4,509 nt of DNA from a virus. Taxonomy: Duplodnaviria > Heunggongvirae > Uroviricota > Caudoviricetes. Positions 1 to 4,509 of the stretch are shown here, one piece after another. The notes under the pieces were generated by a model, which worked only from the letters and a program-made list of their open reading frames with translations, had not been told where the DNA came from and made no database searches. The stretch is taken from the IMG/VR virus record IMGVR_UViG_3300014846_000030, positions 1 to 4,509 of that record; one strand, written 5' to 3'. The translations under genes and the position numbers were made by a program. Numbering within the stretch: position 1 is the first letter of the stretch; each line of letters opens with the position of its first letter.

Positions 1-93
1 CGGGATTATTTCATCCTCAGAGAACGGTTGATGACAATGCAGAAGCAGGTGGAAGGGGCGCAGGAATATATCCGCACTCAGTGTATTAACTAG
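1..93 (+). CDS. Rz: Rz-like i-spanin, C-terminal fragment (5' end outside window)
   Basis: Frame 1 reads RDYFILRERLMTMQKQVEGAQEYIRTQCIN then TAG at 91-93. This closely matches the C-terminus of lambda Rz as I recall it (...AERDYFTLRERLITMQKQLEGTQKYINEQCR). It sits immediately upstream of cos, as in lambdoid phages. Confidence 0.85.
   Translation, partial: RDYFILRERLMTMQKQVEGAQEYIRTQCIN
2..31 (+). CDS. Rz1: Rz1-like o-spanin, C-terminal fragment embedded in Rz in the +1 frame
   Basis: Frame 2 reads GIISSSENG then TGA at 29-31, matching the lambda Rz1 C-terminus (...GIISPSERG). The nested-gene arrangement inside Rz is typical of lambdoid spanins. Only 10 codons are visible. Confidence 0.7.
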   Translation, partial: GIISSSENG

Positions 94-116
94 TATTTTT
101 GTTATCCGGAGAATGC

Positions 117-341
117 ATGAAGAAATTACTGGTAACCGTAAAGCCTTTTCAGGGAACAATTCTGTTCCGTATTTTGCAGCGTGGCCGTGTTCTTGTTGAA
201 GGTTCGTTCAGTGGTAAATGTATGCAATTACACTCCCGGACCTTTCAGGTGAATGCCACGAATGAAGAGCTAACCGTTGAGTGTACGATGAATACCGCTA
301 AATGCCGCATGGTATCCGCTGCATTACAGCGAGTGTGTTGA
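117..341 (+). CDS. hypothetical small protein (74 aa), function unknown
   Basis: ATG at 117 is preceded by GGAG at 107-110 (6-nt spacer); the ORF runs to TGA at 339-341. The ORF track starts it at a TTG at 99, but the ATG with the RBS is the more plausible start. It contains 4 Cys. I do not recognise the product, and it is not a Bor homologue as far as I can tell. Confidence 0.4.
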   Translation: MKKLLVTVKPFQGTILFRILQRGRVLVEGSFSGKCMQLHSRTFQVNATNEELTVECTMNTAKCRMVSAALQRVC

Positions 342-607
342 GCGACCTTATTATCCATGCGCGGTATTGTCGCCGTATCCCCGCATTAACAGAGACCGCA
401 GCCCGACCGGGAGACTCCTCTGCGCGAGTGTGCGGGGATAATCAAAAACGATACACACCGGGGTTTACCGCGTTAACGGAGCGCGGCGTTGTCCCCTCAT
501 AGTCGCCTGTCCGGTGCGATGGTGGAAGAAACCGAACGTTCATTTCTCGTTATTTTTCATGCTGGCCGGGCGCAGATGCGTTGCATCTGTTGCCAGCCTT
601 CTCCTGC

Positions 608-631
608 NNNNNNNNNNNNNNNNNNNNNNNN
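608..631. other. Run of 24 N (assembly gap or masked bases) coinciding with the predicted cosN nicking site
   Basis: N characters are directly visible. The sequence resuming at 632 (TTTTCGCTATTTATGAAAATTTT) is nearly identical to lambda bases 19 onward, so the gap covers the expected 12-nt cohesive end plus flanks. Confidence 0.95.
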
Positions 632-781
632 TTTTCGCTATTTATGAAAATTTTTAGGGAAAAATCAGATCCGTTCTTCTTCTTTTTAACTGATTGATTA
701 TCAATAGAATTTTAAAAATATAAAAGGATCTGACAAAGGCTGTTTTTGTTAGAAAACGCCATTTTCAGATCCTTTCTGGTT
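632..781 (+). promoter_or_regulatory. cos: cos site, cosB portion: terminase-binding R3, IHF site I1, R2 (inverted), R1
   Basis: 632-655 matches the lambda left-end sequence. R3 (TCAGATCCGTTCTTCT, 665-680) is at the same offset as lambda R3 (GCGTTTCCGTTCTTCT). R2 (AAAAGGATCTGA, 722-733) is an inverted copy of R1 (TCAGATCCTTTC, 766-777). An exact match to the IHF consensus WATCAANNNNTTR lies on the minus strand at 687-699, between R3 and R2. This is the same order as lambda cosB, placed directly upstream of Nu1. Confidence 0.8.
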
Positions 782-794
782 CCCGGGGGAGTGT

Positions 795-1343
795 ATGAAC
801 GTCAATAAGAAAAAACTGGCCGATATTTTTGGCGTTGATGTCAGGACCATCACCGCCTGGCAGAGTCAGGGGTTACCACTAGTTTCTGGTGGAGGGAAAG
901 GGACTGAATCAGTTTTTGATACAACTGCTGCCATTCAGTGGTATGCGCAGAGGGAAGCTGATATTGAAAACGAAAAACTCCGTAAAGAGATCGAGGATTT
1001 GAGGGCTGCCAGCGAATCAGACCTTCAGCCCGGCACCATTGATTACGAACGTTACCGACTGACGAAGGCACAGGCCGATGCACAGGAGCTGAAAAATGCT
1101 CGTGAGGAAGGCCTTGTCCTCGAGACGGAGTTATTTACCTACATCTTTCAGCGAGTGGCACAGAATATATCAGGGATCCTTGTCCGTGTCCCTCAGACAC
1201 TGCAGCGTAAATACCCTGATATATCACCCGTACATCTTGATGCTGTGAAAACTGAAATCGCGAAAGCATCCGATGTGGCTTCTGAAGCCGGTGAGAATGT
1301 GCGCAGGTGGATTGATGATTTCAGACGAACTGAGGGCGGCTAA
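795..1343 (+). CDS. nu1: terminase small subunit (gpNu1 family), 182 aa
   Basis: The translation [42 protein letters not shown]...[27 protein letters not shown] aligns along most of its length with lambda Nu1 (MEVNKKQLADIFGASIRTIQNWQEQGMPVLRGGGKGNEVLYD...). RBS GGGGGAG at 784-790. It lies immediately downstream of cosB. Confidence 0.93.
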
Positions 1344-3243
1344 TTCTGCAGGAGCGATAGCAACCGGCCTCCTTGCGCTAAAAATTCCTGTCCCTCTGAC
1401 GACAGTTCAGTGGGCAGATCGACATTATTACCTTCCGAAAGAGTCATCTTACACCCCGGGGCGGTGGGAAACACTGCCGTTTCAGGTTGCCATCATGAAC
1501 AGCATGGGGAATGACCGGATCCGCACTGTTAATCTGATTAAATCTGCCCGTGTTGGTTATACAAAGATGTTGCTGGGAGTGGAGGCTTATTTTATTGAGC
1601 ATAAATCACGCAACAGCCTTCTTTTCCAGCCCACGGATTCTGCTGCTGAAGATTTTATGAAATCTCATGTGGAACCCACGATCAGGGATGTGCCGGTTTT
1701 ACTCGATCTTGCACCGTGGTTTGGGCGTAAACATCGTGATAATACCCTCACGCTGAAACGTTTTTCATCGGGCGTGGGCTTCTGGTGCCTGGGCGGGGCT
1801 GCCGCTAAAAACTACCGTGAAAAATCCGTGGACGTGGTCTGCTATGACGAACTTTCCTCGTTCGAACCGGATGTCGAAAAAGAGGGTTCGCCAACCCTGC
1901 TTGGGGATAAACGTATTGAGGGCTCTGTATGGCCCAAATCCATTCGCGGCTCGACGCCTAAAATCAAAGGCACCTGCCAGATCGAAAAAGCGGCCAACGA
2001 GTCGGCGCATTTCATGCGTTTTTATGTGCCCTGCCCACACTGTGGGGAGGAGCAGTATCTGAAATTTGGCGATGAATCCACGCCTTTTGGCCTTAAATGG
2101 GAGAAGGACAGCCCCGAAAGCGTTTTCTACCTCTGTGAACATCATGGCTGCGTGATCCATCAGTCTGAGCTTGACCAGAGCAACGGGCGGTGGATCTGTG
2201 AAAACACGGGGATGTGGACCCGTGACGGTCTGACGTTTTTCAGCGCCGCGGATAATGAAATTCCGCCGCCGCGCTCCATCACGTTCCATATCTGGACGGC
2301 GTACAGTCCGTTCACCACCTGGGTACAGATAGTCTATGACTGGCTGGATGCACTGAAAGATCCCAACGGCCTGAAAACCTTTGTGAACACCACGCTGGGC
2401 GAGACCTGGGAAGAGGCCGTGGGCGAAAAACTCGATCACCAGGTACTGATGGATAAGGTCGTGCATTACACGGCGGCGGTGCCAGCCCGGGTGGTTTATC
2501 TGACGGCGGGCATTGACTCGCAGCGAAACCGTTTTGAGATGTATGTCTGGGGATGGGCACCGGGAGAGGAAGCTTTTCTGGTGGATAAAATCATCATTAT
2601 GGGCCGTCCCGATGAGGAAGAGACGCTGTTACGTGTGGATGCGGCGATCAACAAAAAATACTGCCATGCAGACGGAACCGAAATGACCATTTCCCGTGTC
2701 TGCTGGGACACCGGGGGGATCGATGGTGAAATTGTCTATCAGAGGTCAAAAAAACACGGTGTTTTCCGGGTGCTGCCGGTAAAAGGCGCATCTGTCTATG
2801 GCAAGCCGGTGATCACCATGCCGAAAACCCGCAATCAGCGGGGCGTGTATCTGTGTGAAGTGGGGACGGACACCGCAAAAGAAATTCTCTATGCCCGTAT
2901 GAAAGCCGATCCCACGCCTGCGGATGAAGCCACGTCGTATGCCATCCATTTTCCTGATGATCCGGAGATTTTTTCGCAGACAGAGGCGCAGCAACTGGTC
3001 GCGGAAGAGCTTGTGGAGAAGTGGGAAAAAGGAAAGATGCGTCTGCTGTGGGATAACAAAAAGCGGCGTAACGAAGCGCTGGACTGCCTGGTGTATGCCT
3101 ATGCGGCATTACGTGTGTCCGTGCAACGCTGGCAGCTTGATCTGGCTGTACTGGCAAAATCCCGGGAAGAAGAGACGACCCGGCCAACCCTTAAAGAACT
3201 GGCAGCGAAGCTGTCCGGAGGAGTGAATGGTTACAGTCGCTGA
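1315..3243 (+). CDS. A: terminase large subunit (gpA family; ATPase/translocase plus cos endonuclease), 642 aa
   Basis: Strong colinear similarity to lambda gpA: [40 protein letters not shown] (P-loop-like, 1540-1563), [32 protein letters not shown] and [10 protein letters not shown] all have lambda counterparts. The start is placed at ATG 1315 (RBS AGGTGG at 1305-1310) because it gives an N-terminus the same length as lambda gpA; the ORF-track start at 1273 and an ATG at 1297 are alternatives. Overlaps Nu1 by 29 nt. Confidence 0.93.
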
Positions 3244-3433
3244 ACTGCAGGCGCTGCGTCAGGCGCGCCTTGATTTATTAACCGGTAAACGGGTGGTGTC
3301 TGTCCAGAAAGATGGTCGCAGAATTGAATATACGGCGGCTTCTCTGGATGAGCTTAACCGGGCGATCAATGATGCGGAGTCGGTACTGGGGACAACCCGA
3401 CGTCGCCGTCGTCCGCTGGGAGTGAGGTTATGA
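3227..3433 (+). CDS. W: head-tail joining / head completion protein (gpW family), 68 aa
   Basis: The translation [43 protein letters not shown]... matches lambda gpW ([43 protein letters not shown]...) and has the same 68-aa length. RBS GGAGGAG at 3217-3223. Overlaps the end of A by 17 nt. Confidence 0.9.
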   Translation: MVTVAELQALRQARLDLLTGKRVVSVQKDGRRIEYTAASLDELNRAINDAESVLGTTRRRRRPLGVRL

Positions 3434-4434
3434 AACGAACGCCTGTCCTGATTGATGTGAACGGCGTTCCGCTTCGTGAGAGTCTCAGCTACAACGGGGG
3501 CGGCGCAGGATTTGGCGGGCAAATGGCGGAGTGGTTGCCACCGGCGCAGAGTGCCGATGCAGCCCTGCTGCCTGCGTTGCGTCTGGGGAATGCCCGGGCA
3601 GATGATCTGGTGCGCAATAACGGGATAGCGGCTAATGCGGTGGCCCTGCATAAGGATCATATTGTCGGGCATATGTTTCTGATCAGCTACCGTCCGAACT
3701 GGCGCTGGCTGGGGATGCGGGAGACTGCGGCAAAAAGTTTTGTCGATGAGGTGGAGGCGGCCTGGTCAGAATACGCAGAAGGGATGTTTGGCGAGATCGA
3801 CGTGGAAGGGAAACGCACGTTTACGGAATTTATCCGTGAAGGTGTGGGCGTTCATGCGTTTAACGGCGAAATCTTTGTGCAGCCGGTCTGGGATACGGAA
3901 ACCACGCAGTTATTCCGTACGCGTTTTAAAGCCGTGAGTCCGAAACGGGTGGACACGCCAGGACGCGGTATCGGGAACCGTTTTCTGCGGGCCGGTGTGG
4001 AGGTTGATCGATATGGCCGTGCCGTTGCGTACCATATCTGTGAGGATGATTTTCCTCGCTCCGGGAGTGGACGATGGGAACGGATCCCGCGTGAACTACC
4101 CACCGGGCGTCCGGCCATGCTGCATATTTTCGAGCCGGTGGAGGACGGGCAGACCCGTGGGGCCAATCAGTTTTACAGCGTCATGGAACGGCTGAAGATG
4201 CTCGATTCCCTGCAGGCAACACAGCTTCAGTCGGCCATAGTGAAGGCGATGTATGCAGCGACGATTGAAAGTGAACTGGATACCGAAAAGGCCTTTGAAT
4301 ATATCGCCGGTGCGCCGCAGGGGCAGAAGGATAATCCGCTTATTAATATTCTGGAGAAGTTCTCCAGCTGGTATGACACGAATCACGTGACGCTGGGCGG
4401 TGTCAAAATTCCGCACCTTTTCCCTGGTGGGTAA
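3430..4434 (+). pseudogene. B: portal protein (gpB family), N-terminal 334 codons only; truncated by IS1 insertion
   Basis: The translation matches the lambda gpB N-terminal region (GGGSGFGGQ, GNARADDLVRNNG, FEPVEDGQTRGAN, TQLQSAIVKAMYAATIESELDT, GGxKxPHLxPG). Lambda gpB is 533 aa; here the frame runs straight into the IS1 terminal repeat and stops at a TAA supplied by the IS1 end (4432-4434). Its ATG overlaps the gpW stop (ATGA). Confidence 0.9.
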
Positions 4435-4509
4435 TGACTCCAACTTATTGATAGTGTTTTATGTTCAGATAATGCCCGATGACTTTGTCATGCAGCTCCA
4501 CCGATTTTG
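4430..4509 (-). mobile_element. IS1: IS1 terminal 80 bp (IRR end, element on minus strand); remainder outside window
   Basis: GGTAATGACTCCAACTTATTGATAGTGTTTTATGTTCAGATAATGCCCGATGACTTTGTCATGCAGCTCCACCGATTTTG matches, from memory, the reverse complement of the IS1 right end including the terminal inverted repeat GGTAATGACTCCAACTTATTGAT. The junction is ambiguous by 1-2 nt because of shared G residues. Confidence 0.9.
4445..4509 (-). CDS. insB: IS1 transposase InsB, C-terminal fragment (5' end outside window)
   Basis: The minus strand reads ...HYLNIKHYQ then stop (reverse complement of 4445-4447 is TAA), which is the expected insB C-terminus inside the IS1 right end. Confidence 0.75.
   Translation of the reverse strand, partial: KSVELHDKVIGHYLNIKHYQ

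What the first reader, a model, noticed from the sequence alone, without database searches (positions are those of the whole stretch)
608..631. The 24-N gap falls exactly on the cosN nicking site
Lining up the conserved bases at 632-655 and the R3 offset with lambda puts the 12-nt cohesive end and its flanks entirely inside the N-run. A gap at exactly this spot is unlikely to be chance. One possible cause is that many templates in the library ended at cos (linear virion DNA with cohesive ends from an induced, co-resident or helper-packaged phage), so the assembler broke contigs there and scaffolding rejoined them. Another is that the site was masked. If free cos-ended DNA exists, that conflicts with the IS1-disrupted portal and would imply a second related phage or helper-dependent packaging.
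Basis: partly seen in the sequence, partly recalled or inferred. Interest (0 to 1): 0.6.

Follow-up and report, generated by a model that had tools for sequence, protein, structure and literature searches.

The report
Assembly gap over a prophage cos site
The 24 unknown bases are most likely an ordinary short-read assembly gap in a repeated stretch of a defective lambda-like prophage. The phage's DNA-cutting site almost certainly lies in the unresolved stretch, but the gap is not evidence that cut phage DNA was present.

Summary
The N-run is real (608-631, 24 N, the only one in the window). Its right flank registers perfectly with lambda: 632-654 equals lambda 19-41 (23/23), and R3 sits at the same offset. 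Anchored on that side alone, the 24 bases would read GTTACG|GGGCGGCGACCT|CGCGGG. Three gap-free metagenome contigs of the same element show exactly this sequence. They are 100% identical to the window over 632-4509, including the IS1::portal junction.

The left flank is not a cos flank. Bases 535-607 are the 3' end of a ylcI/DUF3950 gene, 100% identical to a different prophage type. The cosQ element is missing where it should be. The resolved copies have 84 nt where the window has 73 + 24 N = 97. In complete genomes that carry ylcI upstream of a lambda-type cos, 329-357 nt separate the two flanks. No public sequence searched joins the two flanks 10-40 nt apart.

So the N-run is best read as a scaffolding gap at a mosaic, multi-copy region. 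The cos core occurs in 4,208 of 5,426 complete E. coli genomes, up to 8 copies each. The contig ends do not coincide with the nick positions, so the virion-end hypothesis is not supported. Interest is low.

The parts
1..93 (+). 3' end of an Rz-like lysis gene (stop TAG at 91-93)
   Evidence: It corresponds to the L008 gene at 3-335, which carries PF03245 Phage_lysis. The window is 100% identical to L008 over 1-507.
117..341 (+). 74-aa conserved hypothetical ORF between the lysis genes and cos
   Evidence: It is called as a gene in L007, L008, L001 and L006. It has no Pfam family.
224..534 (.). Stretch shared by two prophage types: the lambda-type packaging module (L008) and the HK97-type packaging module (L006). 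This is the mosaic or repeat region where the assembly path switches.
   Evidence: The window is 100% identical to L008 over 1-507 and 100% identical to L006 over 224-607. The 357-534 part matches 1,988 of 5,426 genomes, at up to 10 places per genome. There is no Rfam hit and no unusual folding.
535..607 (-). Off-path left flank of the gap: the last 22 codons (540-607) and stop of a ylcI/ynfO (DUF3950) gene plus 5 nt downstream. It is not homologous to the cos left side.
   Evidence: It is 100% identical to E. coli 2018-166, where it continues into ylcI, then HNH endonuclease, then an HK97-like terminase. It differs from L007-L009 from base 535 onwards. It is 20/80 identical to the lambda right end.
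608..631 (.). Run of 24 N, best read as a scaffold or assembly gap. The true content almost certainly includes cosN (GGGCGGCGACCT) and, with the mis-pathed 535-607, replaces 84 nt of cosQ-cosN sequence.
   Evidence: Searches show the N-run. Searches show the resolved identical elements.
632..654 (+). Conserved segment immediately right of cosN (lambda bp 19-41)
   Evidence: It is 23/23 identical to lambda and identical in all relatives.
666..677 (+). cosB R3-like terminase small-subunit binding box (CAGATCCGTTCT)
   Evidence: The pattern CAGATCCKTTYT gives 3 matches in the window against 0.07 expected. This box sits at the same offset as lambda R3.
687..699 (-). IHF consensus (I1-like) between R3 and R2
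   Evidence: It matches WATCAANNNNTTR. There are 2 matches in the window against 0.13 expected.
721..732 (-). cosB R2-like box, inverted
   Evidence: 1 mismatch.
766..777 (+). cosB R1-like box
   Evidence: 0 mismatches.
795..1343 (+). Terminase small subunit (Nu1), intact
   Evidence: PF07471 Phage_Nu1, E = 1.6e-86.
1315..3243 (+). Terminase large subunit (gpA), intact, 642 aa
   Evidence: PF05876 GpA_ATPase and PF20454 GpA_nuclease.
3227..3433 (+). gpW head-tail joining protein
   Evidence: PF02831 gpW.
3430..4429 (+). Lambda-family portal gene (gpB) truncated after about 333 codons. The ORF runs 2 codons into IS1 and stops at 4432-4434.
   Evidence: PF05136 Phage_portal_2, profile positions 2-290 of 354. 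Homology to intact portal genes stops at 4429.
4430..4509 (-). Terminal 80 nt of IS1. The window ends inside the insertion sequence.
   Evidence: It is 100% identical to ends annotated as IS1 family transposase in thousands of plasmids. The other contigs of this element stop 53-125 nt into IS1.

Best explanation
The N-run is an assembly or scaffolding gap, not a biological signal. It is probably not a length-true mask either.

The window looks like a complete short-read scaffold of a defective lambda-type prophage. Two contigs were joined by the scaffolder. The right contig (632-4509) is the true cosB-Nu1-A-W-portal::IS1 segment. The left contig (1-607) runs through a stretch shared with another lambdoid prophage type (224-534). 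It then follows that paralogue's branch, the 3' end of ylcI, for 73 nt before stopping.

The real sequence of this element between 534 and 632 is most likely the 84 nt seen in the identical resolved copies. That stretch holds a variable spacer, cosQ (GGGTCCT), and GTTACG|GGGCGGCGACCT|CGCGGG. The 24 N would then be a paired-end gap-size estimate. The true distance past the mis-pathed overhang would be 11 nt.

A less likely variant is that the source really carries ylcI upstream of cos, as E2348/69 and AZ146 do. The gap would then hide about 330-360 nt.

Either way cosN lies in the unresolved stretch simply because it adjoins cosB. The break is there because cos and its surroundings are conserved, multi-copy, mosaic sequence.

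Shown: flank identities, the length mismatch, the absence of cosQ, and the repeat copy numbers. Inferred: the assembler behaviour.
For: 1. Window 632-4509 is 100% identical (3,851-3,878 nt) to three independent gap-free metagenome contigs, L007, L008 and L009. These carry the same IS1::portal junction. All three read ...GGGTCCTTTCCGGCGATCCGGGCCGTTACG|GGGCGGCGACCT|CGCGGG before TTTTCGC.
2. Window 1-507 is 100% identical to L008, and window 224-607 is 100% identical to a different prophage type in E. coli 2018-166 (L006). There the sequence continues AGGCTTCAATAACCC... into ylcI, then HNH and an HK97-like terminase.
3. The lengths disagree: 97 positions in the window against 84 nt in L008. E2348/69 has 329 nt and AZ146 has 357 nt between the same two flanks.
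4. cosQ is absent at 584-590 but present in every resolved relative.
5. No sequence with the two flanks 10-40 nt apart was found in GTDB representative genomes, IMG/VR or JGI metagenomes. No complete E. coli genome covers the junction.
6. The region is repeated. The cos core is found in 4,208 of 5,426 genomes, at 7,738 places and up to 8 per genome. The left-flank repeat is found in 1,548-1,988 genomes, at up to 9-10 places each.
7. The window ends 80 nt inside IS1. The three other contigs of this element end 53, 55 and 125 nt inside IS1, and the last is a MEGAHIT k127 contig. This is the signature of de Bruijn contigs stopping in repeats.
8. The truncated portal protein is on record only from JGI/IMG and ENA metagenome assemblies.
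Against: - The source assembly and its reads could not be found or inspected. The scaffold-gap origin is therefore inferred, not observed.
- I have no specific reason why the right contig starts at exactly 632.
- With the right-flank anchor, the 24 N cover a symmetric 6 + 12 + 6 around the cohesive end. That neat figure is also what a deliberate mask of cosN would look like.
- Metagenome contigs L007-L009 could themselves be chimeric, although three assemblies made by different assemblers agree.
Confidence: 0.8

Rival explanations
1. This is a length-true mask or low-confidence consensus over a genuinely recombinant junction. In the source DNA, a ylcI fragment really lies 24 nt from TTTTCGC. 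The prophage would then have cosN and cosB but no cosQ, or might have lost part of cosN.
For: With the right-hand anchor, the 24 N cover exactly 6 + 12 + 6 around the cohesive end, which looks designed. The tool notes say some stretches in one collection are masked as N. Recombination between co-resident lambdoid prophages at shared segments such as 224-534 is plausible in principle.
Against: - No public sequence searched has the two flanks 10-40 nt apart.
- A crossover into the ylcI branch needs a second crossover back within 24 nt. The HK97-type partner has no homology there: L006 continues AGGCTTCAATAACCC....
- The ylcI-plus-lambda-cos type would bring in 329-357 nt, not 24.
- The otherwise 100% identical element has ordinary cosQ-cosN in three assemblies.
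Confidence: 0.08
2. Many library templates were linear cos-ended phage DNA, so the assembler broke at cos and scaffolding rejoined the ends. That would imply an active related phage or helper-dependent packaging.
For: The gap adjoins cosB, and the terminase genes Nu1 and A are intact. cosN must lie just left of 632.
Against: - Ends of mature DNA would place the right contig start at GGGCGGCGACCT (equivalent to 614) and the left contig end at ...GTTACG, with or without the filled-in 12 nt.
- The observed ends are 18 nt inside the left end, and in unrelated ylcI sequence lacking cosQ.
- Extra termini add reads without removing the spanning reads from integrated or concatemeric DNA. They would not normally break a de Bruijn contig (general knowledge).
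- The portal is destroyed by IS1 in all copies seen.
Confidence: 0.04

Closest known systems
Bacteriophage lambda cos (cosQ-cosN-cosB) with the Nu1/gpA terminase
   Same: - The gene order is the same: cos, Nu1, A, W, B.
- The bases right of cosN are identical to lambda 19-41.
- cosB has the same layout: R3 direct, an IHF site, R2 inverted, R1 direct, all upstream of Nu1.
- In identical resolved copies, the cohesive end GGGCGGCGACCT, its flanks and cosQ GGGTCCT match lambda exactly.
- The roles of the subsites are as described in PMC4669245.
   Different: - The R boxes have a different core (CAGATCCKTTYT) from the lambda R3 sequence at the same offset.
- In the window itself, cosN is unread and cosQ is absent from its expected position.
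- The portal gene is cut by IS1, so the prophage cannot package DNA on its own.
Scaffold gaps at paralogous prophage repeats in short-read assemblies
   Same: - The N-run joins two segments whose junction is not found in any resolved genome.
- One flank follows a paralogue's path.
- The length disagrees with the resolved copies.
- The scaffold ends inside an IS element.
   Different: Nothing found here sets it apart. The only curiosity is that the gap's right edge lies 6 nt beyond the right-hand cosN nick.
E. coli E2348/69 and Ecol_AZ146 prophages (ylcI upstream of a lambda-type cos)
   Same: They contain both flanks of the gap in the same order and orientation. AZ146 is 100% identical to the window over 632-2500.
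   Different: The flanks are 329 and 357 nt apart, not 24. Their ylcI segments are only about 85-97% identical to window 535-607.

Membership tests
lambda-type cos site | cosN: a 12-nt cohesive-end sequence flanked by conserved CG at the nick positions | not testable with these tools
   The bases are N in the window (608-631). The feature is present as GTTACG|GGGCGGCGACCT|CGCGGG in three contigs 100% identical to window 632-4509.
lambda-type cos site | cosB: R3, an IHF site (I1), inverted R2 and R1 between cosN and Nu1 | tested here: met
   There are three R-like boxes at 666-677 (+), 721-732 (-) and 766-777 (+), against 0.07 expected by chance. An IHF consensus lies at 687-699. R3 sits at the lambda offset.
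lambda-type cos site | cosQ (GGGTCCT) 24-30 nt upstream of the left nick | tested here: not met
   Window 584-590 reads CATCTGT. Every resolved relative has GGGTCCT at that distance. The failure reflects the mis-pathed left flank rather than the biology of the element.
lambda-type cos site | Cognate terminase genes (Nu1 and gpA) immediately downstream | tested here: met
   PF07471, PF05876 and PF20454 match full-length ORFs.
assembly or scaffold gap | The flanks are not contiguous in resolved copies of the same element, and the N count disagrees with the resolved length | tested here: met
   The window has 97 positions against 84 nt in L008. The left flank diverges from L007-L009 at 535. No match with the flanks 10-40 nt apart was found in three collections, nor in complete E. 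coli genomes.
assembly or scaffold gap | The gap lies in multi-copy sequence, and the scaffold ends in repeats | tested here: met
   The cos core occurs at 7,738 places in 4,208 genomes. The left repeat occurs at up to 10 places per genome. The window ends 80 nt inside IS1.
assembly or scaffold gap | Read pairs bridge the gap but no reads span the joined sequence, or the assembly record lists a gap | not testable with these tools
   The source record and its reads are not available. The source was not found in any searchable collection.
contig break caused by physical cos termini | Contig ends coincide with the two nick positions, 12 nt apart | tested here: not met
   The right contig starts 18 nt inside the mature left end. 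The left contig ends in ylcI sequence, not in ...GTTACG.

The most novel reading that the evidence does not exclude
The gap is length-true and the junction is real. In that case a defective prophage has intact terminase genes and a cosN-cosB initiation site fused to a ylcI fragment, and it has lost the cosQ termination signal. Alternatively, the break reflects real cos-cut DNA in the sample. Such an element could start helper-assisted packaging that cannot terminate at its own cos.
Probability: 0.05. Interest if true: 0.35.

Novelty: not a real feature. Interest (0 to 1): 0.07.

Why it matters
It matters little. The result warns against reading biology into the position of N-runs. Conserved multi-copy phage sites such as cos sit at mosaic junctions, which is where short-read assemblies break. 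A gap over a functional site is therefore expected and is not a sign of free phage ends. The underlying element is an ordinary lambda-type packaging module inactivated by IS1. Had the cos-end reading been right, it would have implied an active helper or second phage in the sample. The evidence does not support that.

Tried and rejected
- **Finding the source record.** I tried to inspect its other gaps. Two scans of GTDB representative genomes and two of JGI metagenomes did not find it. They returned only OAWU01001897.1, which is L007.
- **Finding a resolved sequence with the two flanks 10-40 nt apart.** There were none in genomes, viral contigs or metagenomes. None of the complete E. coli genomes covers the junction. 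These pattern scans need exact 20- and 21-nt flanks, so variants with a SNP would be missed.
- **Finding a complete E. coli genome with the same IS1::portal junction.** There is none.
- **Checking whether the conserved non-coding stretch 350-540 is a structured RNA.** There is no Rfam hit at E <= 0.1. Folding z-scores are 0.00 and 0.16. Rejected.
- **Deriving the assembler's k-mer size from the overhangs.** The overhangs are 80 nt into IS1, 73 nt into the ylcI branch, and a contig start at 632. I found no single k that explains all three, so I make no claim.
- **A microhomology-mediated join between the ylcI branch and cosN.** The shared GTTAC would give a 49-nt interval, not 24. Rejected.

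Full report
**What is in the window**

The 4,509-nt window is the late-region start of a lambda-type prophage.
- The end of an Rz-like lysis gene occupies 1-93.
- A 74-aa hypothetical ORF occupies 117-341.
- About 450 nt of non-coding sequence follows, holding the only N-run (608-631, 24 N).
- Then come Nu1 (795-1343), gpA (1315-3243), gpW (3227-3433) and a lambda-family portal gene.
- Homology to intact portal genes stops at 4429.
- The last 80 nt are an IS1 end.

**The observation**

Window 632-654 equals lambda 19-41 (23/23). After 14 divergent bases, the R3 box lies at the same ungapped offset (14/16).

The cosB layout is lambda-like. R-like boxes lie at 666-677 (+), 721-732 (-) and 766-777 (+), three matches against 0.07 expected. 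An IHF consensus lies at 687-699.

In all resolved relatives, the 24 nt preceding TTTTCGC are G(T/C)TACG|GGGCGGCGACCT|CGCGGG, matching the lambda junction read from NC_001416. So cosN does belong immediately left of 632.

The left flank is not a cos flank.
- Compared without gaps to the lambda right end, window 528-607 is 20/80 identical, which is chance level.
- The 7-bp cosQ element GGGTCCT lies 24-30 nt upstream of the nick in lambda and in every resolved relative. The window has CATCTGT at 584-590 instead.
- Window 535-607 is the last 22 codons and stop of a ylcI/ynfO (DUF3950) gene on the minus strand. Window 224-607 is 100% identical to E. coli 2018-166, where the sequence continues AGGCTTCAATAACCC... 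into ylcI, an HNH endonuclease and an HK97-like terminase. That is a different packaging module.

**The same element, resolved elsewhere**

I looked up the IS1-truncated portal protein by exact sequence. It is found in metagenome contigs only. Three contigs, made by different assemblers, are 100% identical to window 632-4509 over 3,851-3,878 nt, including the IS1 junction. None of them contains an N.

L008 is also 100% identical to window 1-507. Between the equivalents of 534 and 632, these contigs carry 84 nt. That stretch holds a short spacer and then GGGTCCTTTCCGGCGATCCGGGCCGTTACG|GGGCGGCGACCT|CGCGGG. The window has 73 nt of ylcI branch plus 24 N, which is 97 positions. The N-run therefore cannot be a like-for-like replacement of the missing bases.

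Some complete genomes do have ylcI upstream of a lambda-type cos. In E2348/69 and Ecol_AZ146, the two flanks are 329 and 357 nt apart.

No sequence with the flanks 10-40 nt apart exists in GTDB representative genomes, IMG/VR or JGI metagenomes. None of 5,426 complete E. coli genomes covers the junction.

**Most likely explanation**

The window is a short-read scaffold.
- It ends 80 nt inside IS1. The sister contigs end 53, 55 and 125 nt inside IS1, and the last is a MEGAHIT k127 contig. Contigs from de Bruijn assemblers typically stop this way in repeats.
- The region around the gap is multi-copy and mosaic. The 101-nt cos core occurs in 4,208 of 5,426 complete genomes, at 7,738 places and up to 8 per genome. 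The stretch to its left occurs in 1,548-1,988 genomes, at up to 9-10 places each.
- That left stretch is shared at 100% identity between the lambda-type and HK97-type modules over at least 224-507.

I infer the following. The left contig ran through this shared stretch and followed the paralogue's ylcI branch for 73 nt. The scaffolder then linked it to the true cosB-Nu1 contig with an estimated gap.

If the true sequence is L008-like, the real distance beyond the overhang would be 11 nt. An estimate of 24 is within ordinary paired-end error. An E2348/69-like truth would require an error of about 305 nt, so I rank that variant lower. This paragraph is inference. The reads and the assembly record were not available.

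**Why the cos-end hypothesis is not supported**

Fragments from mature cos-ended DNA start at GGGCGGCGACCT. After end repair, they end at ...GTTACG plus the filled-in 12 nt. This is established knowledge of lambda ends, and the subsite roles are given in PMC4669245.

Contigs broken by such ends would start at window-equivalent 614 and end in cosQ-containing right-end sequence. The observed right contig starts 18 nt further in. The observed left contig ends in sequence that is not part of this phage's right end. The apparent conflict with the IS1-disrupted portal therefore disappears.

**Why a deliberate or length-true mask cannot be fully excluded**

With the right anchor, the 24 N cover a symmetric 6 + 12 + 6 around the cohesive end. 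I could not find the source record.

A mask would require a real junction seen nowhere else. It would also need a double crossover for which the HK97-type partner offers no homology within 24 nt. I give this 0.08.

**Comparison with known systems and verdict**

The underlying feature is a standard lambda-type cos with its Nu1/gpA terminase. Its R boxes have a different core (CAGATCCKTTYT) from the lambda R3 sequence at the same offset. From general knowledge of lambdoid phages, such a difference suggests a different cosB/Nu1 packaging specificity. This was not tested here.

The gap itself is an artefact. The placement is non-random for a mundane reason: it falls in repeat and mosaic structure. 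Novelty: not a real feature. Interest is about 0.07.

Noticed in passing
window 4420-4509; L007, L008, L009: This exact IS1 insertion in the portal gene is on record only in human-gut metagenome contigs. The sources are JGI/IMG and ENA, with 4-5 contigs of at most 5.3 kb. No junction-spanning match was found in 5,426 complete RefSeq E. coli genomes. The host lineage is therefore not represented among finished genomes.
   Followed up: partly
window 666-777: The cosB R boxes share the core CAGATCCKTTYT. The lambda R3 sequence at the same offset begins differently. The Nu1 ORF nevertheless matches the Phage_Nu1 family over its whole length. This suggests a packaging specificity distinct from lambda. 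The same cosB is widespread, being 100% identical in AZ146 and 09-02E.
   Followed up: partly
window 224-534: A non-coding stretch after the 74-aa ORF is shared at 100% identity by prophages with lambda-type (Nu1/A) and HK97-type (HNH plus terminase) packaging modules. It looks like a mosaic recombination joint. It has no Rfam match and no unusual predicted folding.
   Followed up: yes
window 117-341: A conserved 74-aa ORF between Rz and cos has no Pfam family. It is annotated 'hypothetical protein' in complete genomes.
   Followed up: partly
L007 793-1150, L009 191-547 versus window 1-356: The three sister contigs differ from each other upstream of position 357. L007 has 17 mismatches, and L009 lacks the 74-aa ORF region. 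Downstream they are identical. So position 357 is a second mosaic or assembly breakpoint.
   Followed up: no
window 4441-4453: A perfect IHF consensus (TATCAATAAGTTG, minus strand) lies inside the IS1 terminal inverted repeat.
   Followed up: no
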